From: Parachlamydiales bacterium
Lineage (GTDB): Bacteria > Chlamydiota > Chlamydiia > Chlamydiales > Parachlamydiaceae
Direction: 5' to 3'
DNA: 39,932 bases
NCBI GenBank assembly: GCA_020051075.1
Contig: JAGVJP010000131.1
Coordinates: forward strand, 1 to 39,932
Each line of letters begins with the position of its first letter. The stretch's first letter is position 1. The notes under the pieces are model-generated. The model saw only the letters and a list, made by a program, of their open reading frames with translations. It was not told where the DNA came from and searched no databases. A program made the position numbers and the translations under genes. Below are positions 1-37,849 of the stretch, one piece after another.

Positions 1-96
1 ATGCCTAAGGGGAAATGGGTAAAAGCAGCTTAAACGGTAGGCAAAGCGGTACATGCTGGATGGATTTTTTTTTAATCCCTATTATGCAACAACGCC

Positions 97-174
97 CTTT
101 CGCACTCCAAACGCTTCGCGCTGAAAAAATGGGTAATGGTAAGGCCTGACGGCCTGAGGACAGTTCACACCTAT
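97..174. repeat. Repeat family A segment (CTTTCGCACTCCAAACGCTTCGCG...), inverted copy of 39812-39881
   Basis: 97-174 is the reverse complement of 39812-39881 apart from an extra GGCCTGAC. The core 24-mer also occurs at ~8414 and ~14095. Confidence 0.85.
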
Positions 175-422
175 TTATGAGCTATGAAAGAGCGACACAT
201 CATTATGGATAAGCAGGATACAAGTTCTCGCCAAAAATTAACCACACTCGCCCAGAGGCCGTCAGGACTGGAACTACATTCCATCGTGACCTGTAAGTGA
301 ATAACAGTCTGTTATTGGCAATAGCTTTTGACCTCCCCCTCTTTTTATTTTTCTTAATCTTGCCTAAAATCAGCAAAAATGGCTAAATATTTAATCCTCC
401 AGCTCTGTCAAGGAAGTATTTA

Positions 423-1178
423 ATGAAAGATTCAGATAAATTTCATCTGATGATCGTGGGCGATGTGCACGGACACTATGAAGATTACCTCGAAACGATA
501 CGGCTGGCGAACTACTCATTACAATTAGGGGATTTGGGGTTCGATTACACTCCACTGATACGGAGCGGGGAATGGGATCCGGAGAAACACAAATTCCTCC
601 CCGGCAACCACGATAACTATACCGTTAAAGAAGTTCATGGCGTCGATCCTCGGTCAGCCCAAATTCTAGACCCTTATAGCAAATATGTTGTCGTTAATGA
701 AAAAGTCTATCTCTACACCCATCTGCCAAAAAATTTCGTCGGAAACTATGGCATTTGGAGAGTGCCGACAACACATCCAGAGGCCAAGCAAGATTTTCTG
801 TTCTTTGTCAGAGGTGCTTGGAGCATCGACTTCGCCAATCGCACGTTGGGTGTTGACCTATGGGAAAACGAAGAACTCACAGAGGATGAGTTGAAACGTG
901 CTGTGAAGATGTATGAAGAGGTTAAACCGTCGATCGTCATCACTCATACGTGTCCCCATTCTGTTAAAGAGCATCTCCATTTTTATGGCCCTCCCGTGAA
1001 GACGAGGACTAGCCTGTATCTGCAGCAGATGCTCGACATCCATCAACCGAAGTTGTGGGTGTTTGGACATCATCACCAAGAGTTTGACAAGGTGATTGGC
1101 GAGTGCCGCTTCGTCTGCCTTGAGGAGCTGGCATTCCTCTGCTTGGACGAAAACCTCGACCCAATCCCTTTTCAGTAA
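423..1178 (+). CDS. Calcineurin-like metallophosphoesterase
   Basis: Metallophosphoesterase motifs in the expected order: GDVHG, LGDLG, GNHD, ITHTCP, FGHHH. Confidence 0.85.
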   Translation: MKDSDKFHLMIVGDVHGHYEDYLETIRLANYSLQLGDLGFDYTPLIRSGEWDPEKHKFLPGNHDNYTVKEVHGVDPRSAQILDPYSKYVVVNEKVYLYTHLPKNFVGNYGIWRVPTTHPEAKQDFLFFVRGAWSIDFANRTLGVDLWENEELTEDELKRAVKMYEEVKPSIVITHTCPHSVKEHLHFYGPPVKTRTSLYLQQMLDIHQPKLWVFGHHHQEFDKVIGECRFVCLEELAFLCLDENLDPIPFQ

Positions 1179-1233
1179 ATGAAGAAGCCCAGTTATTTAA
1201 ACATCAAAACTACATAACCAAATATGATATCAT

Positions 1234-1670
1234 ATGAACACGATTTTGAAAGAAGAAGTTAAGCGAGTCTTTTGCAACTGCGAGGGGGACAATGACGTTG
1301 AAGACCTCATCGAGCGCCTCCGTGGAGCACCCAAAGAATCCCTTCATCAGCTTCTGATTAAAATGATTATGTTTAAATCCCTCCCCTTGGTACAGCTCGT
1401 GGTCGAATCTGGCGCTGAAATCGAAGAGCCCATTGGAGAAGGAATCACCCCATTGCTTTATGCCTGCCAAGAGGGGCAGCTTGAGATCGTCGACTATCTT
1501 GTAAAATTGAATTCCTCCTCCAACAAGGATTAGATATCAACGCAAGAGATCACAGCGGCAACACTCCTTTGGATCTTGCAATAGGCTTTGAAGTCCCTTC
1601 TCAATTCATTGAATTTTTTCAAAGTCATGGAGGGATTGCTATGACAGAAAATTCTTCATTGACATATTAG
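1234..1670 (+). pseudogene. Ankyrin-repeat protein disrupted by frameshift/internal deletion
   Basis: ORF 1234-1533 has an Ank motif (GITPLLYACQEGQLEIVDYLV). A second Ank repeat (EFLLQQGLDINARDHSGNTPLDLAI) continues in a different frame from ~1509 to a TAG at 1668-1670. Confidence 0.75.
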
Positions 1671-1688
1671 TGCAATATGCACTATGCT
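1659..1688 (+). promoter_or_regulatory. Sigma70/66-type promoter P1 (TTGACA-N18-TATGCT) with palindromic operator TAGTGCA-ATA-TGCACTA (1668-1684)
   Basis: Perfect -35 at 1659-1664 and -10-like hexamer at 1683-1688. The same architecture and palindrome recur at 3403-3432. Confidence 0.8.
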
Positions 1689-1696
1689 TATCTTTT

Positions 1697-1789
1697 GCTG
1701 GGCCGATGCAGGTGGTTTATCGGGTACGTTAAATGCTGCGGAAACGTGAGCGAACGTTAACCATTGGCGTATACATGCCCAGCTTTTTT
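1697..1789 (+). ncRNA. Y-RNA-like ncRNA 1 (putative Ro60/Rsr-binding RNA)
   Basis: The 5' GCUGGGCCGA pairs with the 3' UGCCCAGC leaving a bulged C, followed by U6. Upper stem GGUGGUU/AACCAUU, UUAUCGGGU motif, inner GCG-GAAA-CGU hairpin. Starts 8 nt after the -10 and is homologous to 3707-3805. Confidence 0.75.
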
Positions 1790-1790
1790 C

Positions 1791-1919
1791 TTGCATCAAT
1801 CACCACAGAGCCTGTGAGATCACAGAGAAGTTATGAGAAAGTTGAGAAATCATCAAACTCGTTTCTCCCTATCTCACACCTCCTCAGTGACCTCACTGGC
1901 TCTGTGGTGATAGATGCAA
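1791..1919. repeat. Palindromic miniature element (ACCACAGAG family) between ncRNA 1 and rtcB
   Basis: Terminal arms TTGCATCAATCACCACAGAGCC / GGCTCTGTGGTGATAGATGCAA with further imperfect pairing inward. A related half-element is at 37941-37970. Confidence 0.75.
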
Positions 1920-1950
1920 CAACGCCAAAGAATACCAAAAAAGGTGCCAC

Positions 1951-3366
1951 ATGAAACCTATCGAATTTCAACAGATGCTTGAAGAAGTCAGGCTCACACA
2001 CAAAGAACGGGATGAAGCCTGGAAAACTTTTAAACAAGTGAGTCCTGAAGCTGCCGTCGATTTCGTTCAGAAAATACACGAAATGAGGATTGAACTGCAA
2101 GGCAGTGTGAAACTTCGAGACACCGCAGTCCCTTTTCATATCTGGGGCTTGGAACATATCGACAGCACAGCTTTAGAACAGATGGAAGGAGCTGCTCGTC
2201 TGCCCATCGCTCTGGCCGGTTCTTTAATGCCAGATGCTCACAAAGGCTATGGATTGCCTATCGGCGGGGTCTTGGCGACTGAAAACGCCGTAGTCCCTTA
2301 TGCCGTTGGCGTCGACATCGCCTGCCGCATGATGATGACAGTCTATCCCACCTCACCAGATGCGCTGAAGAAGCCAAACTCACCTGAATTTCAACACCTG
2401 CAGAAAGCTTTAATTGATCATACAGTATTTGGAGCGGGTGCAGATGGCGTGCACGATGGAAAAATCGAACACCCGATCTTGGACCCATCTCACTGGCAAG
2501 GCACCAGGCTCATCCGCGATTTGCGCCTCACCGCTATCCGTCAAATTGGCACAAGCGGAACGGGCAACCACTTTGTCGAATGGGGTGAATTCGAAGTGCT
2601 CGATGCTGCCAACACTCTGAAACTAAAACCTGGAAGCTATTTAGCTTTGCTATCCCACAGCGGTTCCCGCGGCGTCGGCTATAAAATCGCGGAACATTAC
2701 ACTAAAATCGCCATGGAGCTGATGCCAGACCTCGATGAATCGGTGAAGCATTTAGCATGGCTCCCTCTCAATAGAGAGGAGGGACAAGAATACTGGAATG
2801 CGATGCAATTAGCAGGAGAGTTTGCTTCTGCAAACCATCACGTCATCCATGCCAGAATCGCTAAAGCAGCAGGACTCGAGAGCATCGCTTCCATTGAAAA
2901 CCATCATAACTTTGCTTGGGTGGAAAAAATTATTGTGGATGGAATCGAAAGAGAGGCGATTGTGCACCGCAAAGGGGCAACACCTGCAGGAAAAGGGGTT
3001 CTAGGAGTGATTCCAGGGACGATGGCAGACGTCGGTTTCGTTGTGGTAGGAAAGGGGAATCTTGAATCGTTGAACTCCGCATCTCATGGAAGCGGACGTC
3101 AAATGAGCCGGACAAACGCTCTCAAGACCATTACTCATCAACAGCATGCAGATTATTTAACTGAACGGGGCGTCACCTTGATTGGCGGAGGCCTGGACGA
3201 AGCTCCTCATGCCTATAAATCGATTCAAAAGGTGATTGAAGCCCAAAGCGATCTGGTTGACATCATCGGCACCTTCCAACCCCGTATCGTCAGGATGGCG
3301 GAAGACAAGCCTTTGCATCATATTAAACCAGCACCAGAAGGTGTTGTCGATGCAAAAGGGGATTAA
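1951..3366 (+). CDS. rtcB: RtcB family RNA ligase (3'-phosphate/2',3'-cyclic phosphate to 5'-OH)
   Basis: Signature motifs MPDAHKGYGLPIGG, VGVDIAC, GTSGTGNHFVE, HSGSRGVG, HHNFAW, HRKGAT, SHGSGRQMSR, DEAPHAYK. Confidence 0.95.
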   Translation: MKPIEFQQMLEEVRLTHKERDEAWKTFKQVSPEAAVDFVQKIHEMRIELQGSVKLRDTAVPFHIWGLEHIDSTALEQMEGAARLPIALAGSLMPDAHKGYGLPIGGVLATENAVVPYAVGVDIACRMMMTVYPTSPDALKKPNSPEFQHLQKALIDHTVFGAGADGVHDGKIEHPILDPSHWQGTRLIRDLRLTAIRQIGTSGTGNHFVEWGEFEVLDAANTLKLKPGSYLALLSHSGSRGVGYKIAEHYTKIAMELMPDLDESVKHLAWLPLNREEGQEYWNAMQLAGEFASANHHVIHARIAKAAGLESIASIENHHNFAWVEKIIVDGIEREAIVHRKGATPAGKGVLGVIPGTMADVGFVVVGKGNLESLNSASHGSGRQMSRTNALKTITHQQHADYLTERGVTLIGGGLDEAPHAYKSIQKVIEAQSDLVDIIGTFQPRIVRMAEDKPLHHIKPAPEGVVDAKGD

Positions 3367-3402
3367 ATGACTGCGAAAAGTTATTTTTTATTAAATTCCC
3401 TG

Positions 3403-3432
3403 TTGACAAATTAGTGCATTATGCACTATATT
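3403..3432 (+). promoter_or_regulatory. Sigma70/66-type promoter P2 (TTGACA-N18-TATATT) with palindromic operator TAGTGCA-TTA-TGCACTA (3412-3428)
   Basis: Same -35, same 18-bp spacer and same palindrome in the same register as 1659-1688. Confidence 0.8.
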
Positions 3433-3447
3433 TTATTTTTCCGGACT

Positions 3448-3611
3448 ATACCGGCATCTAGTTGAAATTGCCCATCTGGACTGCGCCAAAGCCCCGGGGT
3501 TGAATGATCGTAAATCACCCCATATTGACTTAATATTGGGTGATTTACGATCATTCAACCGCGGGAGCTTTCGCGCAGTCCAGATGGGCAATTTCAACTA
3601 GATGCCGGTAT
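3448..3611. repeat. 164-bp near-perfect palindrome (MITE/palindromic-element-like) in the leader of the Y RNA-rsr transcript
   Basis: 3448-3486 pairs perfectly with 3573-3611 (39 bp) and 3498-3520 with 3538-3560 (23 bp). About 76 bp of stem in total, with 3 mismatches, one bulge, a 5-nt loop and TA at the ends. Confidence 0.9.
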
Positions 3612-3620
3612 TAACGTGTT

Positions 3621-3684
3621 TCATCTGGGCCGGAGTATGTTGGTTACCGCTAAATCTCCAACTTACACAATCATGCCTAGATGG
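3621..3684 (+). ncRNA. Y-RNA-like ncRNA 2 (minimal, ~64 nt)
   Basis: CAUCUGGGCCG pairs with UGCCUAGAUG (bulged C). Upper stem GUAUGUUGG/CCAACUUAC; the loop starts UUACC. Same GGGCCG...CAUGCC frame as ncRNAs 1 and 3. Confidence 0.65.
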
Positions 3685-3706
3685 CTTTATACGTTTAGTA
3701 GATTTT

Positions 3707-3805
3707 GTTGGGCCGAATAAGGTGGATTATCGGGTGCACTGAAGTCGCGCGTCTAGTTACGCGAGGACATGTGTTTGCCATCTTTAAACCATGCCCAACT
3801 TTTTT
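3707..3805 (+). ncRNA. Y-RNA-like ncRNA 3
   Basis: GUUGGGCCGAA pairs with UGCCCAAC, followed by U6. Upper stem AAGGUGG/CCAUCUU, UUAUCGGGU motif, inner stems GCAC/GUGU, GUC/GAC and CGCGU/ACGCG. Compensatory changes relative to ncRNA 1. Lies directly upstream of rsr. Confidence 0.78.
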
Positions 3806-3845
3806 ATTCGCAATGGGTATTCCGTTGCCAACAATGAGACAAAAC

Positions 3846-5486
3846 ATGAGCTATAAAAACCTTATCCAGAATGCAGTGCCAACATTGAAAGGGAAAACCC
3901 CTGAATCTGTGCCTCTTCCAGGACAGGTTCAAAACGAAGCGGGAGGTTACTATTTCGCCATCGATCAATGGGCACAGCTTGATCGATTCCTGATTTTGGG
4001 AACAGATTCAGGAACCTACTACGTCAATCCTGCTCAACTGACGAAAGCGAACGCACAGATCATCCAGACGCTGCTTAAAACGGACGGGGTCAAAGTCGTT
4101 GCACGAATTGTCGAGGTCAGCGTAGACAACCTCGCTCCTAAAAACGATTCTGCCCTCTTCGCCCTTGCTCTTGCAGCCTCATGCGACGATCAACTCACCC
4201 GTCAAGCTGCTCTCGCAAACCTTCACAGAGTCGCACGCACAGGCAGCCATCTTCTGCAGTTTGCCGGTTATATCAACCATTTACGCGGCTGGGGCCGTGC
4301 CTTGCGCAATGCTGTTGCAGATTGGTTCACCGATATGCCTTTAGATCAGCTGACTTTGCAAGCGATCAAATATGAGCAGAGAGAAGGATGGTCGCTCCGC
4401 GACCTCTTGAGACTATCACACCCTAAATGTACTGACGATCCTGACCGAGCAGCTTTGTTCAACTGGATTGTAAAACCTAAAAATCCAGAAGCCATTGCAG
4501 CAGCGCGGAAGCAACGTCTGATCGAAGGCAAATATCAAGCACAAGAGACAACATCTGAACAAGAAATAAGCCAAATTGTCCGCACATACTCATTGCCACG
4601 AGAAGCTTTGCCTACAGAAGCTCTGAACAGTCAAGAGGTTTGGGATGCGCTGTTAGTCGATATGCCCATGACTGCGATGATTCGAAATTTAGGTAAAATG
4701 AGCGAAGTCGGCTTGCTTCAACCTTTTCATCCTGCTTCTCAGTATGTTGTCCAACGCCTGGGCGATCAGGAGCAATTAGTCAAAGCACGCATCAGCCCCT
4801 TTCAACTCTTGTTGGCCTTGCGTACCTATGCTAGAGGTAAGGGAGTCTTAGGATCGCTGACCTGGACACCTGTCCCATCCATCGTCACCGCTTTGGATGA
4901 GGCTTTCGAACTCTCCTTTTCCACAGTCGTGCCAACAAACAAACGCATATTGGTCGGGATCGACGTTTCAGGTTCGATGGGGTGTTCATGCACCGGCTCC
5001 CCAGTGCTATCTTCTGTAGAGGCTGCTGCTGCTGTCGCTTCATTCCTAGTGCGGACAGAAAAGGAAGTGCATACGATGGCTTTTGATACGAAAGAGCGGG
5101 AATTCCCCATCACTCCAAAACAACGACTCGACGATATCATCTTAAGCGTCTCTCAATGGGGAGGGGGAACAGACCTCTCGATTCCGGTCACCTATGCCTT
5201 GAAGAGACAACTTAATGTCGATGCCATCATCATCCTCACCGATAACGTAGGCTGGGCGGGCGATCGGCATAACGTCCAAGCCTTGAACGAATATCGCTCT
5301 AAAATTAACCCTCAGGCGAAATTGGTCGTTATGGCAACTTCTGCAAATGGAGGCATCATCTGTGATCCCAAAGACCCTCTATCATTAGGTGTCGTTGGGT
5401 TCGATGCATCCGCTCCCCAGGTCGCAATGGAATTCATCGGCGGTAATCAGATGAAGCCTTCTCGACGAGGTCTTAATGACGCCTGA
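3846..5486 (+). CDS. rsr: Ro60-related protein Rsr (TROVE + vWA domain)
   Basis: QVQNEAGGYYF, QLDRFLILGTDSGTYY, GWGRALR, KYEQREGWSLRDLLRLSHPK, MPMTAMIRNLGKM, vWA MIDAS DVSGSM, GGTD and TDN motifs. The start is most likely ATG 3846 (or 3834), not TTG 3705. Confidence 0.95.
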   Translation: MSYKNLIQNAVPTLKGKTPESVPLPGQVQNEAGGYYFAIDQWAQLDRFLILGTDSGTYYVNPAQLTKANAQIIQTLLKTDGVKVVARIVEVSVDNLAPKNDSALFALALAASCDDQLTRQAALANLHRVARTGSHLLQFAGYINHLRGWGRALRNAVADWFTDMPLDQLTLQAIKYEQREGWSLRDLLRLSHPKCTDDPDRAALFNWIVKPKNPEAIAAARKQRLIEGKYQAQETTSEQEISQIVRTYSLPREALPTEALNSQEVWDALLVDMPMTAMIRNLGKMSEVGLLQPFHPASQYVVQRLGDQEQLVKARISPFQLLLALRTYARGKGVLGSLTWTPVPSIVTALDEAFELSFSTVVPTNKRILVGIDVSGSMGCSCTGSPVLSSVEAAAAVASFLVRTEKEVHTMAFDTKEREFPITPKQRLDDIILSVSQWGGGTDLSIPVTYALKRQLNVDAIIILTDNVGWAGDRHNVQALNEYRSKINPQAKLVVMATSANGGIICDPKDPLSLGVVGFDASAPQVAMEFIGGNQMKPSRRGLNDA

Positions 5487-5754
5487 TGCATTAAGAGCGA
5501 TTGGAGAAGCCTTATTTGGCAAATGGGGATGGCAAACAAAATTAGCCAAAGCTTTACGCGTCGATGGAAGCACAGTGAGACGGTGGATTTCTGGAACGAC
5601 GACAATCCCAGGGCCAGCAGAAGTTGCCCTGGAATTGTTGTTGAGCTCTCATCAACGCAACATCAAAGACACTGCCAGTAGACCCAACACATCCGGCTCA
5701 TCCGGCACACCCAACACACAGAAACGACATCGTCCTGCCCATATCAAAAAATAA
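5476..5754 (+). CDS. Small Cro/XRE-like helix-turn-helix protein, candidate regulator of the rtcB/rsr promoters
   Basis: WQTKLAKALRVDGSTVRRWISG is a typical HTH. The start overlaps the rsr end by 11 nt, consistent with translational coupling. Confidence 0.75.
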   Translation: MTPDALRAIGEALFGKWGWQTKLAKALRVDGSTVRRWISGTTTIPGPAEVALELLLSSHQRNIKDTASRPNTSGSSGTPNTQKRHRPAHIKK

Positions 5755-5777
5755 TACTACTGTCCAAACCCATTCCT

Positions 5778-5980
5778 GCAACAAGATGAACAGGATAGGC
5801 AACATGGCAACTTCGCAGCATGGAAAAACAGGATAGGCAAGATCGCTTCGCGGCAAGATAGGCAGGATAGAGAATGCTTTCCATTGAATAAAATGCTTCT
5901 CCATCCTTCTCATCTTTCCCATCCTGTCAATTTCTCAGGATAGAAACGATGGAAAAGATAGGTATACTTGCATGCTTGCC
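5778..5980. repeat. Cluster of repeat family B (CAGGATAGGCAAGATCGCTTCGCGGCAAGATAGGCAGGAT)
   Basis: Same motif as 9228-9262 (inverted), 20149-20488 and 12837-12910. Confidence 0.75.
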
Positions 5981-6010
5981 TTCATGTGAAGTTTTCAATA
6001 TTGTTATCTT

Positions 6011-6082
6011 ATTATGCTCGAAATTGACAAATGTCGATTTTGAGCATAATGAATTGACATAAAAATTCTGCTCATTTATAAT
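6011..6082 (+). promoter_or_regulatory. Consensus promoter TTGACA-N17-TATAAT (6054-6082) with a 40-bp imperfect palindrome upstream (6011-6050); probably a leaderless mRNA
   Basis: Perfect -35, -10 and 17-bp spacer. The ATG at 6090 is 7 nt after the -10. Palindrome ATTATGCTCGAAATTGACA-AA-TGTCGATTTTGAGCATAAT. Confidence 0.8.
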
Positions 6083-6089
6083 AAGAGTC

Positions 6090-7514
6090 ATGAAACCATT
6101 TGTCGGAAGAGATAACGAATTACAAAAGCTCGAGGACCTACTAAAAACAGGTCGAGCACGCCTCGCCATCATAAAGGGGCGTCGTCGCATCGGAAAAAGT
6201 CGGCTTGCCGAAGAATTCGGAAAAGATAAAATATTCCTCCCTTTCAGTGGACTGGCTCCTGCTAAAGGGGTGACAGCACAGGATCAACGTGATGCCTTTG
6301 CCCGCCAATTAACAACTTTATTTCATCTTCCTCCTTTCACTTTTACCGACTGGAGTGATGGTTTTGCACACCTCTCGCAGCATCTTACAGAAATGCCCAC
6401 CGTCATTCTCTTCGATGAGATTTCGTGGATGAGTTCAAAAGATCCAACATTTATCTCTAAACTAAAAGTTTGGTGGGATCTTGTCTTACAGAATCATCCC
6501 TCCGTCATCCTTATTTTATGCGGGTCCATTTCGACTTGGATTGATAAAAACATCATTAACAGCACTGCTTTTTTTGGACGAATTTCTCTCTATCTGGAAT
6601 TAGTAGAGTTATCCATCCCACAATGCAGGGAATTATTAAACCTTCAAGGATTCAAAGGTTCCGACCTTGATTTTTTTAAGATTCTTAGTGTCACTGGTGG
6701 GATTCCTTGGTATCTAGAACAGATTCAAAGCAATTTAAGTGCTGATGAAAATATCAAGCGCCTTTGTTTTGAGAAAAACGGCCTTCTCGTACATGAATTC
6801 AACAGGATTTTCAATGATCTTTTTCACTCAAGAGGAGAGGTTTATAAGAAGATTATTAAATTATTAAGTCAAGGGATGAAAGATCGGGCAACCCTCCAAA
6901 AAGCAATGGATTACTCACCAAGTGGAACATTAAGCCAACACCTTAAGGCTCTTGAAATCTGTGGGTTTGTCAGCAAGCATCCTGATTGGTCCTTAAAAAC
7001 GGGGAAACCAGGAAAACAGGCTCTTTATCGACTTTCTGACAACTACCTTCGCTTTTACATCCATTACATAGAACCCAACCTCCCAAAAATTGAACAAGGA
7101 TCATTCCTAGATGTCCCGCTCTCTAGTTTGCCTGGTTGGGAACCGCTGCTTGGCTTCCAATTAGAAAACCTTTTGTTGAAAAACAGATCTCTCATTTATC
7201 GTGCACTTGGAATTCATGCTCAAGATATCGTCATTGACAATCCCTATTTTCAAAAAGCGACAGACCGTAAGAAGGGATGTCAAATTGACTATCTTATTCA
7301 GATGCATTCACACACTCTTTTTGTCTGTGAAGTTAAAATGCGCCGTCGTGAATTAGGTCTTGAGGTTATCGAGACAATGAAAACAAAAATCGCCTCTCTT
7401 GCTTTGCCCAAAGGATTCGGCATCTCGCCTGTCCTTCTCCATTTAGGACCTATCTCCGATGCCCTCTTAAGCAACCCATATTTCTATCGCATCATCGATA
7501 TTGCCGATTTATAA
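6090..7514 (+). CDS. AAA+ ATPase ('archaeal ATPase' type) with wHTH and C-terminal PD-(D/E)XK-like (DUF234-like) domain
   Basis: FVGRDNEL N-terminus, Walker A GRRRIGKS, Walker B ILFDE, LCGS, TGGIPWYL, YRLSDNYLRFY, QIDYLI...FVCEVK. Confidence 0.85.
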   Translation: MKPFVGRDNELQKLEDLLKTGRARLAIIKGRRRIGKSRLAEEFGKDKIFLPFSGLAPAKGVTAQDQRDAFARQLTTLFHLPPFTFTDWSDGFAHLSQHLTEMPTVILFDEISWMSSKDPTFISKLKVWWDLVLQNHPSVILILCGSISTWIDKNIINSTAFFGRISLYLELVELSIPQCRELLNLQGFKGSDLDFFKILSVTGGIPWYLEQIQSNLSADENIKRLCFEKNGLLVHEFNRIFNDLFHSRGEVYKKIIKLLSQGMKDRATLQKAMDYSPSGTLSQHLKALEICGFVSKHPDWSLKTGKPGKQALYRLSDNYLRFYIHYIEPNLPKIEQGSFLDVPLSSLPGWEPLLGFQLENLLLKNRSLIYRALGIHAQDIVIDNPYFQKATDRKKGCQIDYLIQMHSHTLFVCEVKMRRRELGLEVIETMKTKIASLALPKGFGISPVLLHLGPISDALLSNPYFYRIIDIADL

Positions 7515-7563
7515 TCCTACCAACATCTAGTCGAAATGAAGGTCATGACACATCACTTCATTT

Positions 7564-8244
7564 TTATTTTTTACGGGCAATGATTTCGAAAATATGGGAA
7601 TGGGTCTGACGTCCAGTACCGCTTTGACCATCTTCTTCAAATTCTTTAAAAGATTCCACATCAAAATCTTGAAAAAGACTCAGCACTTCTTCCCGTTTCA
7701 GAAAAGTCATTTCTTTCACCTCTTGCTCGGGAAAACCAAGATAGTTTAGTCCAAAAAAATGCCCTGCAAATCTCCCTCCAGGAATAAGTTTTTGTTTGAC
7801 ATGACTCCAAACTCTTTTAAATTCTGATTGATTGCAAAAAGGTAAAGAGTAAGAAGCATAGATGAAATCAACATCCGGTAGTGCATCCCAAACTGATTCT
7901 TCCTCAAATTTATTCACGACCGAAGTTAACTTCTCGGGTTCTTTGATGTCATTTCGTTTATTTATTATTTGAATGGCTTGGTGTTCACTATCTATAGCCC
8001 ATACTTCCCAGCCCTTATTAAGCAGGAAAACTGCTTCATTGCCTACACCGCACCCTAAGTCAATGGCTTTACCTTGTTTTTTGAAAAGATTAAGTGCTTC
8101 TACAATAATCTCTCGGGGAGGTTGACCCATTTTGTTTTTATAATATCTGTCCCACTTTCCTTGTTTAAGGATTCCCAATCCAAGGAAAAGGATAACTAGT
8201 AAAGTAAAAATTATAGATATTTTCTTCCACTTCGTCATGTTCAT
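7564..8244 (-). CDS. Class I SAM-dependent methyltransferase (TehB-like) with N-terminal hydrophobic segment
   Basis: Motif I AIDLGCGVG, VWAID, LIPGGRFAG. Confidence 0.8.
   Translation of the reverse strand: MNMTKWKKISIIFTLLVILFLGLGILKQGKWDRYYKNKMGQPPREIIVEALNLFKKQGKAIDLGCGVGNEAVFLLNKGWEVWAIDSEHQAIQIINKRNDIKEPEKLTSVVNKFEEESVWDALPDVDFIYASYSLPFCNQSEFKRVWSHVKQKLIPGGRFAGHFFGLNYLGFPEQEVKEMTFLKREEVLSLFQDFDVESFKEFEEDGQSGTGRQTHSHIFEIIARKK

Positions 8245-37776: not shown

Positions 37777-37849
<73 letters not shown>

What the first reader, a model, noticed from the sequence alone, without database searches (positions are those of the whole stretch)
1697..3805. Three paralogous short Y-RNA-like genes with covariation and no tRNA-mimic domain
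Seen: RNA1 (1697-1783) GCUGGGCCGAUGCAGGUGGUUUAUCGGGU...CAUGCCCAGC-U6; RNA3 (3707-3799) GUUGGGCCGAAUAAGGUGGAUUAUCGGGU...CAUGCCCAAC-U6; RNA2 (3621-3684) CAUCUGGGCCGGA...CAUGCCUAGAUG. In each, the 5' and 3' ends pair around a bulged C. Compensatory changes support the fold: C-G becomes U-A at closing-stem position 2, ACGU/ACGU becomes GCAC/GUGU, and the apical hairpins differ in sequence but both pair. Established: Ro60 binds a bulged-C helix formed by the ends of Y RNAs (vertebrate GGCUGGUCCGA), whereas the widespread bacterial YrlA class has a tRNA-like module with a T-loop. I find no T-loop (GUUCRA) here. Inference: these are metazoan-style, end-paired bacterial Y RNAs that a YrlA model would probably miss.
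Basis: partly seen in the sequence, partly recalled or inferred. Interest (0 to 1): 0.88.

Follow-up and report, generated by a model that had tools for sequence, protein, structure and literature searches.

The report
Three hairpin-type bacterial Y RNA genes
Three small RNA genes beside the Ro60-like gene rsr and the RNA ligase gene rtcB are real bacterial Y RNAs that lack the usual tRNA-like part; they are new members of a known RNA family that standard annotation misses.

Summary
RNA1 (1697-1783), RNA2 (3622-3683) and RNA3 (3707-3799) share a 7-bp closing stem, an unpaired C, a second ~9-bp stem and a UUAUC/UUACC box. They flank rtcB and lie upstream of rsr on the same strand.

A covariance model built from 17 such RNAs found 145 matches in 68 of 77 rsr loci, all co-oriented with rsr. 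94% of stem cells pair, and 14 of 17 pairs show compensatory change. In the window's own genome the model hits only these three.

None has a T-arm. Rfam YrlA and YrlB miss all three, and only sub-threshold Y RNA or nematode sbRNA hits appear.

The novelty is overstated. Hairpin-type bacterial Y RNAs (YrlB, Yrn2) are published. Here 79 of the 145 matches lack a T-loop, and this scan noted the short class before on other DNA.

What is specific to this locus:
- All five chlamydia-related rsr loci examined carry only T-less Y RNAs (10 of 10).
- Each array starts at a conserved sigma-70-like promoter that holds a palindromic operator. This co-occurs with a small Cro-like gene after rsr.
- A U-tract follows the Y RNAs 18-46 nt before rsr (and, in a relative, rtcB), so these genes must be read through.

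Expression and Rsr binding are untested.

The parts
1659..1688 (+). Sigma-70-like promoter A (TTGACA, 18 nt, TATGCT) with the palindromic operator TAGTGCA-N3-TGCACTA at 1668-1684. The -10 box ends 8 nt before the first base of RNA1.
   Evidence: The same box sits before the first Y RNA in 12 related loci and in L082.
1697..1783 (+). RNA1, an 87-nt hairpin-type Y RNA. P1 is 1697-1703 with 1777-1783. The unpaired C is 1704. P2 is about 1707-1715 with 1761-1769. UUAUC is 1717-1721. An apical hairpin carries a GAAA loop.
   Evidence: R1 58.0 bits; folds; no T-arm.
1784..1789 (+). U6 tract directly after P1 of RNA1. Inferred to be a partial intrinsic terminator.
   Evidence: sequence only.
1788..1922 (.). 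Palindromic dispersed repeat (MITE-like) inserted between RNA1 and rtcB. It is not part of the Y RNA system.
   Evidence: 31 BLAST matches in the own genome, counting self and both strands.
1951..3366 (+). rtcB, RNA 3'-phosphate ligase, 471 aa.
   Evidence: Pfam RtcB 3.1e-80. 79%, 69% and 83% identity to rtcB in L010, L009 and L082.
3403..3432 (+). Sigma-70-like promoter B (TTGACA, 18 nt, TATATT) with operator TAGTGCA-N3-TGCACTA at 3412-3428.
3448..3611 (.). Second palindromic dispersed repeat (MITE-like), of a different family, inserted between promoter B and RNA2.
   Evidence: 39 BLAST matches in the own genome, counting self and both strands.
3622..3683 (+). RNA2, a 62-nt minimal Y RNA (model core 3624-3681). 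It has a 9-bp P1, an unpaired C at 3631, P2 with one U-U mismatch, a UUACC box, and no apical hairpin.
   Evidence: R1 54.5 bits. Rfam sbRNA RF01656 26.7 bits, Y_RNA 14.4 and Deinococcus_Y_RNA 12.9, all below cut-off. Fold z-score -3.95.
3707..3799 (+). RNA3, a 93-nt hairpin-type Y RNA. P1 is 3707-3713 with 3793-3799. The unpaired C is 3714. P2 is 3719-3725 with 3778-3784. UUAUC is 3727-3731. It has a long imperfect apical hairpin.
   Evidence: R1 56.6 bits; folds.
3800..3805 (+). U6 tract after RNA3, lying 40 nt before the rsr start codon.
3846..5486 (+). rsr, the Ro60 ortholog (TROVE ring plus vWA), 546 aa.
   Evidence: Pfam TROVE 4.2e-45 and vWA_Ro60 9.6e-46. NCBIfam Rsr 3.9e-133, at 444.7 bits below that model's cut-off of 900.
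5476..5754 (+). 92-aa ORF overlapping the rsr stop. It is a Cro/YdaS-like helix-turn-helix protein and the candidate regulator that binds the operator (inferred).
   Evidence: Its N-terminal 51-69 residues are 68-89% identical directly after rsr in 13 related loci and in L082. Pfam gives weak hits to YdaS_toxin, HTH_3 and P22_Cro at E 0.002-0.008, below cut-offs.

Best explanation
RNA1, RNA2 and RNA3 are genes for bacterial Y RNAs of the hairpin type, meaning they have no tRNA-like module.

Each RNA pairs its 5' and 3' ends into the conserved Ro-binding module: a 7-9 bp stem, an unpaired C, G-A, a ~9 bp second stem and a UUAUC box. Through this module it is expected to bind the ring protein Rsr, which is encoded just downstream (binding is inferred, not shown).

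By analogy with studied Y RNAs, the bound RNA would gate Rsr's RNA-binding surface. Its distal hairpin or single-stranded box would link Rsr to a partner. PNPase is the known partner elsewhere and is encoded in this genome (this step is inferred).

Transcription is read from the sequence as follows. Two copies of one sigma-70-like promoter, each with an embedded palindromic operator, start transcription at or next to the first base of RNA1 and upstream of RNA2-RNA3. The closing stem plus U6 ends part of the transcripts as free Y RNA. Read-through carries on into rtcB and into rsr plus the small HTH gene. No promoter-like site was found between the Y RNAs and these genes, and there is almost no room for one before rsr.

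The small HTH protein probably represses both promoters through the operator (inferred from co-occurrence).
For: Synteny: RtcB and Rsr are identified by Pfam, and the three RNAs lie on the same strand.

Homology and covariation:
- Model R1, built from 17 T-less RNAs, gives 145 matches in 68 of 77 sources. All 145 are co-oriented with rsr.
- On that alignment 94.1% of cells pair, against at most 48.2% when partners are slid. 14 of 17 pairs change on both sides. 0 of 500 shuffles reach the observed values. Because this alignment is fitted to the model it leans towards the structure.
- On the plain MAFFT alignment of the 17, 86.8% pair and 11 of 17 pairs are compensatory.
- The unpaired C is present in 144 of 145, and the UUAUC columns are conserved in 131-145 of 145.

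Specificity: only these three match in the own genome.

Rfam: the only Rfam rows on these RNAs' own strand are Y-type families, all below cut-off. A homologous 65-nt RNA in L021 reaches the sbRNA gathering score, 39 against 38.

T-less status.

Promoter and operator. The first Y RNA starts 6-9 nt after the -10 box in most of the 15 aligned sites.

Read-through: in the chlamydia-related loci the gap from Y RNA to start codon is 18-46 nt and begins with U6-U9. The exception is the RNA1-to-rtcB gap here, which holds the repeat insertion.

Partner and regulators: PNPase is present at 979 bits. RtcR and RtcA were not found in this 99.9%-complete genome.

Literature: Y RNA tethers Ro60 to PNPase, and bacteria carry two or more Y RNAs, at least one of them a long hairpin (PMC4201824 passages; preprint 10.1101/312249 passages).
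Against: - There is no expression or binding data. No RNA-seq run holding this DNA was listed.
- Single-sequence fold z-scores are weak for RNA1 (-2.07) and RNA3 (-1.64). RNA3's unconstrained minimum-energy fold does not use the family P2; its centroid does.
- Each RNA departs by one position from the published motif GNCGAAN0-1G (against the passage).
- No Rfam family reaches its cut-off.
- RNA2 has a U-U mismatch in P2 and no apical hairpin. A repeat insertion cuts it off from its promoter, and it has no counterpart in the closest relative L082, so it may be decaying.
- The effector module is not conserved in sequence across relatives. RNAalifold recovered only P1 on a MAFFT alignment of 13.
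- The terminator, read-through and repressor steps are read from sequence only.
Confidence: 0.85

Rival explanations
1. The elements act mainly in cis. They would be structured 5' leaders or attenuators of the rtcB and rsr mRNAs: the Y fold plus U-tract would form a terminator whose efficiency Rsr binding could tune. On this reading they are not free-standing stable RNAs.
For: In the chlamydia-related loci each Y RNA array ends in U6-U9 only 18-46 nt before the start codon of rsr or rtcB, leaving no room for a promoter. The exception is RNA1-to-rtcB here, whose 167-nt gap holds the repeat insertion. The promoter scan found no site between RNA3 and rsr. In L082 a 58-nt Y RNA lies between the operator-promoter and rtcB.
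Against: Homologous RNAs in other loci lie in arrays of two to five without U-tracts. Published relatives accumulate as stable Rsr-bound RNAs processed from operon transcripts (PMC4201824 passages). The two roles are not exclusive.
Confidence: 0.12
2. RNA2 is a decaying, non-functional copy. Only RNA1 and RNA3 would be working Y RNAs.
For: RNA2 has a U-U mismatch in P2 and lacks the hairpins that its closest relatives carry in L006, L007, L008, L011 and L012. A 164-bp repeat separates it from promoter B. The closest relative L082 has one Y RNA at this position, not two.
Against: It scores as well as the others with R1, at 54.5 bits, and has the best fold z-score, -3.95. Minimal Y RNAs of 58-70 nt are the commonest size class, with a median of 66 nt among the 79 T-less matches. 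L082 itself has a 58-nt one.
Confidence: 0.25
3. They are ordinary dispersed repeats or remnants of a mobile element that happen to lie near rsr.
For: Two true dispersed palindromic repeats do lie in the same intergenic regions, at 1788-1922 and 3448-3611.
Against: The Y RNA motif occurs nowhere else in the genome. It is conserved next to rsr across several phyla, with compensatory changes.
Confidence: 0.01

Closest known systems
Hairpin-type bacterial Y RNAs: S. Typhimurium YrlB (Rfam RF02565) and D. radiodurans Yrn2
   Same: They are encoded beside rsr on the same strand and their 5' and 3' ends pair into a long stem carrying the Ro-binding motif. They have no full tRNA-like domain and co-exist with other Y RNAs in the locus (PMC4201824 passages).
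   Different: There is no detectable sequence-model relationship: RF02565 gives no match at the three RNAs at E<=10. In all three studied species a tRNA-like Y RNA is also present. Here, and in four related chlamydia-type loci, none was found.
YrlA (Rfam RF02553), the tRNA-mimicking bacterial Y RNA
   Same: The Ro-binding module is the same: closing stem, unpaired C, GAAG, second stem and UUAUC. The YrlA-type model R2 aligns the two ends of all three RNAs at 34.1, 29.6 and 23.1 bits.
   Different: There is no T-arm, D-arm or acceptor-like stem, and 53-75 model positions are skipped. RF02553 does not match them.
Metazoan Y RNAs (RF00019) and nematode stem-bulge RNAs (RF01656)
   Same: They have a similar size and end-paired architecture with a bulged C, followed by a second stem and a UUAU box, as in the Rfam consensus lines printed. 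They end in a run of U.
   Different: All hits are sub-threshold: RNA2 gives 26.7 and 14.4 bits against cut-offs of 38, RNA1 gives 13.6, and RNA3 gives none. They would be made from a bacterial sigma-70-type promoter. The U-run here is read as a bacterial terminator, not a Pol III stop.
Salmonella rsr-yrlBA-rtcBA operon under RtcR and sigma-54
   Same: rsr, Y RNAs and rtcB are clustered and co-oriented, and the Y RNAs are co-transcribed with the protein genes (passages).
   Different: RtcR and RtcA were not found in this genome. Control seems instead to be by a sigma-70-like promoter with a palindromic operator and a small Cro-like protein. The Y RNAs lie upstream of the genes, not between rsr and rtcB.

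Membership tests
Y RNA (Ro60/Rsr-associated ncRNA, broad sense) | Encoded within a few kb of the Ro60/Rsr gene on the same strand (PMC4201824: within 4 kb, same strand) | tested here: met
   RNA2 and RNA3 lie 163 and 47 nt upstream of rsr, and RNA1 lies 2.06 kb upstream. All are on the + strand.
Y RNA (Ro60/Rsr-associated ncRNA, broad sense) | 5' and 3' ends pair into a stem with a bulged C and a conserved 5'-strand motif (GGUCCGA in animals, GNCGAAN0-1G in bacteria) | tested here: met
   Stem, unpaired C and second stem are present and covary. Each RNA departs from the strict bacterial motif at one position: GCCGAUG, GCCGGAG and GCCGAAUAAG.
Y RNA (Ro60/Rsr-associated ncRNA, broad sense) | Physical binding to Ro60/Rsr and Rsr-dependent accumulation | not testable with these tools
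   No RNA-protein tool is available, and no RNA run was listed.
YrlA (RF02553) | tRNA-like effector module: T-arm with a UUCRA loop, D-arm and a closed acceptor-like stem | tested here: not met
   T-arm regex gives 0 in the three RNAs and 0 in window 847-6986. ARAGORN gives 0 genes. R2 skips the tRNA-like positions.
YrlA (RF02553) | Rfam gathering score of 69 bits | tested here: not met
   No match at the three RNAs at E<=10. Five of the six genome matches fall on regions where ARAGORN finds tRNA genes, and one (C74) was not examined.
YrlB (RF02565) | Rfam gathering score of 97 bits | tested here: not met
   No match on contig C76 at E<=10.
Rfam Y_RNA RF00019, sbRNA RF01656 and Deinococcus_Y_RNA RF01053 | Gathering scores of 38, 38 and 80 bits | tested here: not met
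   RNA2 scores 14.4, 26.7 and 12.9 bits. RNA1 scores 13.6 bits to RF01656 only. RNA3 has no row.
Dispersed repeat / MITE | Many copies scattered through the genome | tested here: not met
   The three copies are all at this locus. The two neighbouring long hairpins do meet this test.

The most novel reading that the evidence does not exclude
In this lineage the Y RNA genes may double as Rsr-responsive attenuators. Every protein gene of the module (rtcB, and rsr with the HTH gene) is reached only by reading through a Y RNA whose closing stem abuts a U-tract. Rsr binding to the nascent Y RNA could then set how much ligase and Rsr mRNA is made. That would be a protein-RNA feedback loop built from the Y RNA itself, working without any tRNA mimic.
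Probability: 0.15. Interest if true: 0.7.

Novelty: new member of a known kind. Interest (0 to 1): 0.4.

Why it matters
These three genes would be missed by standard annotation. Rfam's YrlA, YrlB and Y_RNA models all fail on them.

They also show that an Rsr-RtcB module can exist with hairpin-type Y RNAs only. In all three bacteria studied so far, one Y RNA carries a tRNA-like domain, which is thought to be the effector-binding part. A lineage with none of these (10 of 10 Y RNAs in five chlamydia-related loci) is a natural test of what that domain is for.

The conserved operator and small HTH gene point to a control circuit for rsr that does not use RtcR and sigma-54.

None of this changes the picture of what Y RNAs are. 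It adds members, a wider distribution for the short class, and a regulatory variant.

Tried and rejected
- Rfam at gathering thresholds found only a tRNA at 37777-37849.
- RNA-seq evidence: no RNA holder was listed for window 1600-5600, and the 11 listed runs are DNA with small shares.
- I first took the two long hairpins (1788-1922 and 3448-3611) for processing signals or part of the RNA system. They are dispersed palindromic repeats with 31 and 39 BLAST matches in the genome. Their miRNA-family hits in Rfam come from long perfect hairpins and are artefacts.
- RNAalifold on a MAFFT alignment of 13 longer T-less RNAs recovered only P1. The distal hairpins are too variable to align, so covariation there rests only on the pairwise comparison of RNA1 and RNA3.
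- I first assumed that Rfam holds no YrlA model, because nothing matched in L021, L008 or L012. A note from this scan named RF02553 and RF02565. Both exist and both miss the three RNAs.
- The 2020 Annual Review on bacterial Ro60 (PMC10870794) is not held. It may already describe the spread of short Y RNAs.
- Searches for Y RNA or Ro60 together with Chlamydiae or Parachlamydia found no paper holding those taxon words among the 15 listed of 40.
- The name of the window's organism could not be established. 'Chlamydia-related' rests on the record titles of L009 and L010 and on rtcB identity.
- The extra R2 hits of 28-33 bits in genomes G184, G287 and G433 were not checked one by one. In the own genome the equivalent hits are tRNA genes.
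Full report
**Locus**

The first 6 kb of the window read as follows, all on the + strand:
- a metallophosphoesterase gene (423-1178);
- a frameshifted ankyrin gene (1228-1670);
- RNA1 (1697-1783);
- rtcB (1951-3366; Pfam RtcB 3.1e-80);
- RNA2 (3622-3683);
- RNA3 (3707-3799);
- rsr (3846-5486; TROVE 4.2e-45 and vWA_Ro60 9.6e-46);
- a 92-aa ORF that overlaps the rsr stop (5476-5754).

**Observation**

RNA2 is one base tighter on each side. Each RNA pairs its ends around an unpaired C. The C-G to U-A change in the closing stem and the ACGU/ACGU to GCAC/GUGU change are real.

No T-arm is present. The T-arm regex gave 0 hits in window 847-6986, and ARAGORN found 0 genes in 1-8000.

The motif is not scattered:
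- The pattern gave 3 hits in the 2.94-Mb genome, all here, with 0 in the reversed control.
- Of 28 generic candidates, only these 3 have the UUAYC box.

Fold z-scores alone are modest: -2.07, -3.95 and -1.64.

**Comparative evidence**

A scan of one genome per species for Rsr relatives returned 75 loci. A simple scan showed the same module upstream of rsr in most of them: three variable bases, GGGCCGAAG, a stem, GGUUAUC, then CUUGCCC and the three complementary bases.

I aligned 17 T-less examples, including the three from the window, and wrote in two helices. On this plain MAFFT alignment 86.8% of cells pair, against at most 52.3% when partners are slid. 11 of 17 pairs change on both sides.

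The covariance model R1 built from that alignment found 145 matches at E<=0.01 in 68 of 77 sources. All 145 are on the rsr strand. On the model-fitted alignment, which leans towards the structure:
- 94.1% of cells pair, against at most 48.2% when slid;
- 14 of 17 pairs are compensatory;
- 0 of 500 shuffles reach the observed values.

The unpaired C is present in 144 of 145. The UUAUC columns are conserved in 131-145 of 145.

In the window's own genome R1 finds only the three RNAs. With filters off on the window, the next best score is 7.8 bits.

**Two classes in rsr loci**

Of the 145 matches, 66 carry a T-loop-like motif (median length 125 nt). These also show a D-arm-like GUAGCUCA..GGUAGAGC and a closed stem, so they are YrlA-type. 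The other 79 carry none (median 66 nt; 76 of them are 96 nt or shorter). 40 loci hold both classes.

T-less Y RNAs are therefore common companions of rsr. The window's RNA2 belongs to the minimal size class. RNA1 and RNA3 belong to an 86-101 nt class seen in the closest Rsr clade.

**Testing 'a YrlA model would miss them'**

Rfam's YrlA model (RF02553, cut-off 69) and YrlB model (RF02565, cut-off 97) give no match at the three RNAs at E<=10. Five of RF02553's six matches in the genome fall on regions where ARAGORN finds tRNA genes; the sixth, on contig C74, was not examined.

My own model R2, built from 29 T-arm-bearing RNAs, does find them at 34.1, 29.6 and 23.1 bits. It does so only by aligning the two ends and skipping 53-75 central positions. 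True YrlA-type RNAs score 49-78 bits with R2.

The only Rfam rows on the RNAs themselves are sub-threshold Y-type families. RNA2 gives sbRNA RF01656 at 26.7 bits, Y_RNA at 14.4 and Deinococcus_Y_RNA at 12.9. RNA1 gives RF01656 at 13.6. A homologous 65-nt RNA in L021 just reaches the sbRNA cut-off, 39 against 38.

**A lineage with only T-less Y RNAs**

Rsr is rare among the window's relatives. It was found in 2 of 201 sampled genomes of the order and 3 of 401 of the phylum, counting the window's own genome.

I examined five chlamydia-related loci:
- the window;
- L082 (genome G287), same family;
- L083 (G184), same order;
- L009, titled Chlamydiales;
- L010, titled Parachlamydiales.

Together they hold 3+2+1+2+2 = 10 Y RNAs, and none has a T-arm. 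Whole-genome scans of the four other genomes with R1 found Y RNAs only at rsr. R2 gave nothing above 33 bits; those weak hits were not checked one by one.

In the same Rsr clade, nine non-chlamydial loci do carry a T-arm-bearing Y RNA: L006, L007, L008, L011, L012, L013, L015, L017 and L020. L014 and L016 are unclear.

**Transcription and control (read from sequence)**

Two near-identical sigma-70-like promoters stand at 1659-1688 and 3403-3432: TTGACA, 18 nt, then TATGCT or TATATT. Each holds TAGTGCA-N3-TGCACTA between the hexamers.

The exact 15-nt core of this palindrome lies just upstream of the first Y RNA in 12 related loci and in L082, and with one mismatch in L013. It occurs in none of the other fetched loci. 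In 15 aligned sites the 7+7 palindrome is invariant, and in most sites the Y RNA starts 6-9 nt after the -10 box.

The same set of loci, and only that set, carries a homolog of the 92-aa ORF directly after rsr: 13 loci plus L082, at 68-89% identity over the first 51-69 residues. That ORF has weak Cro/YdaS/HTH_3-type matches at E 0.002-0.008. RtcR and RtcA were not found in this 99.9%-complete genome.

I infer a small repressor acting on its own operon. This is not shown.

In the chlamydia-related loci the last Y RNA before each gene is followed at once by U6-U9, and the start codon comes 18-46 nt later. The exception is RNA1-to-rtcB here, where a repeat is inserted. No promoter-like site was found in the RNA3-rsr gap. 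rsr and rtcB must therefore be reached by read-through.

Gene order differs between relatives. L009 and L010 run promoter, Y, Y, rsr, HTH, rtcB. The window and L082 place rtcB upstream behind its own promoter-Y RNA unit.

**What the long hairpins are**

The hairpins at 1788-1922 and 3448-3611 are two families of palindromic dispersed repeats, with 31 and 39 BLAST matches in the genome. They are inserted between RNA1 and rtcB and between promoter B and RNA2. L082 lacks them.

**Mechanism**

Binding of Rsr through the closing stem, the unpaired C and the second stem is inferred by homology with studied Y RNAs. In those, Ro60 contacts mainly the 5' strand of this helix (PMC4201824 passages).

In D. 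radiodurans and S. Typhimurium the distal part of the Y RNA links Rsr to PNPase (passages). PNPase is encoded here. Whether a plain hairpin can do the same job is open. Chen et al. suggest that such extra Y RNAs let Ro60 join other partners.

**What is known and what is new**

Hairpin-type bacterial Y RNAs are published for three species. The authors report that BLAST with YrlB found orthologs only in Salmonella (section 5 of PMC4201824). I could not see the 2020 review. This scan has already noted a widespread short Y RNA family on other DNA.

The window's RNAs are therefore new members of a known kind. The points that go a little further are the chlamydia-type loci with no tRNA-like Y RNA, the operator-HTH circuit, and the leader position of the Y RNAs.

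Noticed in passing
window 1659-1688 and 3403-3432; window 5476-5754; L006-L017, L020, L082: An invariant palindrome, TAGTGCA-N3-TGCACTA, sits inside a sigma-70-like promoter before the first Y RNA. It co-occurs almost perfectly with a small Cro-like HTH gene right after rsr (12 exact matches and 1 near match in 13 loci, plus L082, and none in the other loci). This is probably a repressor-operator pair that replaces RtcR/sigma-54 control.
   Followed up: partly
window 1788-1922 and 3448-3611: Two different palindromic dispersed repeats (MITE-like, about 135 and 164 bp) have 31 and 39 BLAST matches across the genome. They are inserted into the Y RNA-rtcB and promoter-RNA2 spacers, and they give spurious plant and animal miRNA hits in Rfam.
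   Followed up: yes
window 1228-1670: An ankyrin-repeat gene is split over two frames (1228-1533 and 1485-1670). This is a frameshift or a sequencing error. Its end overlaps the -35 box of promoter A.
   Followed up: partly
L021:4736-4805 (and similar RNAs about 100 nt upstream of rsr in most Verrucomicrobia loci): A conserved ~65-nt T-less Y RNA lies directly upstream of rsr in dozens of Verrucomicrobia loci. The L021 copy reaches the gathering score of the nematode stem-bulge RNA family RF01656 (39 against 38 bits).
   Followed up: partly
L021, L008, L012: T-arm-bearing YrlA-type RNAs in these loci are not reported by Rfam at gathering thresholds, so the public YrlA model is narrow. L021 also has seven tRNA matches around rsr.
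   Followed up: no
L009, L010 versus window, L082: The position of rtcB differs. It lies after rsr-HTH in L009 and L010, but upstream with its own duplicated promoter-Y RNA unit in the window and L082. The window's RtcB is 69-83% identical to those of these loci, but only about 30% identical to the RtcB of the alphaproteobacterial loci whose Rsr is 70-71% identical.
   Followed up: partly
own genome C74:3773-3902: A weak RF02553 (YrlA) match of 20.9 bits at E 0.09. It was not examined. The other such matches are tRNA genes.
   Followed up: no
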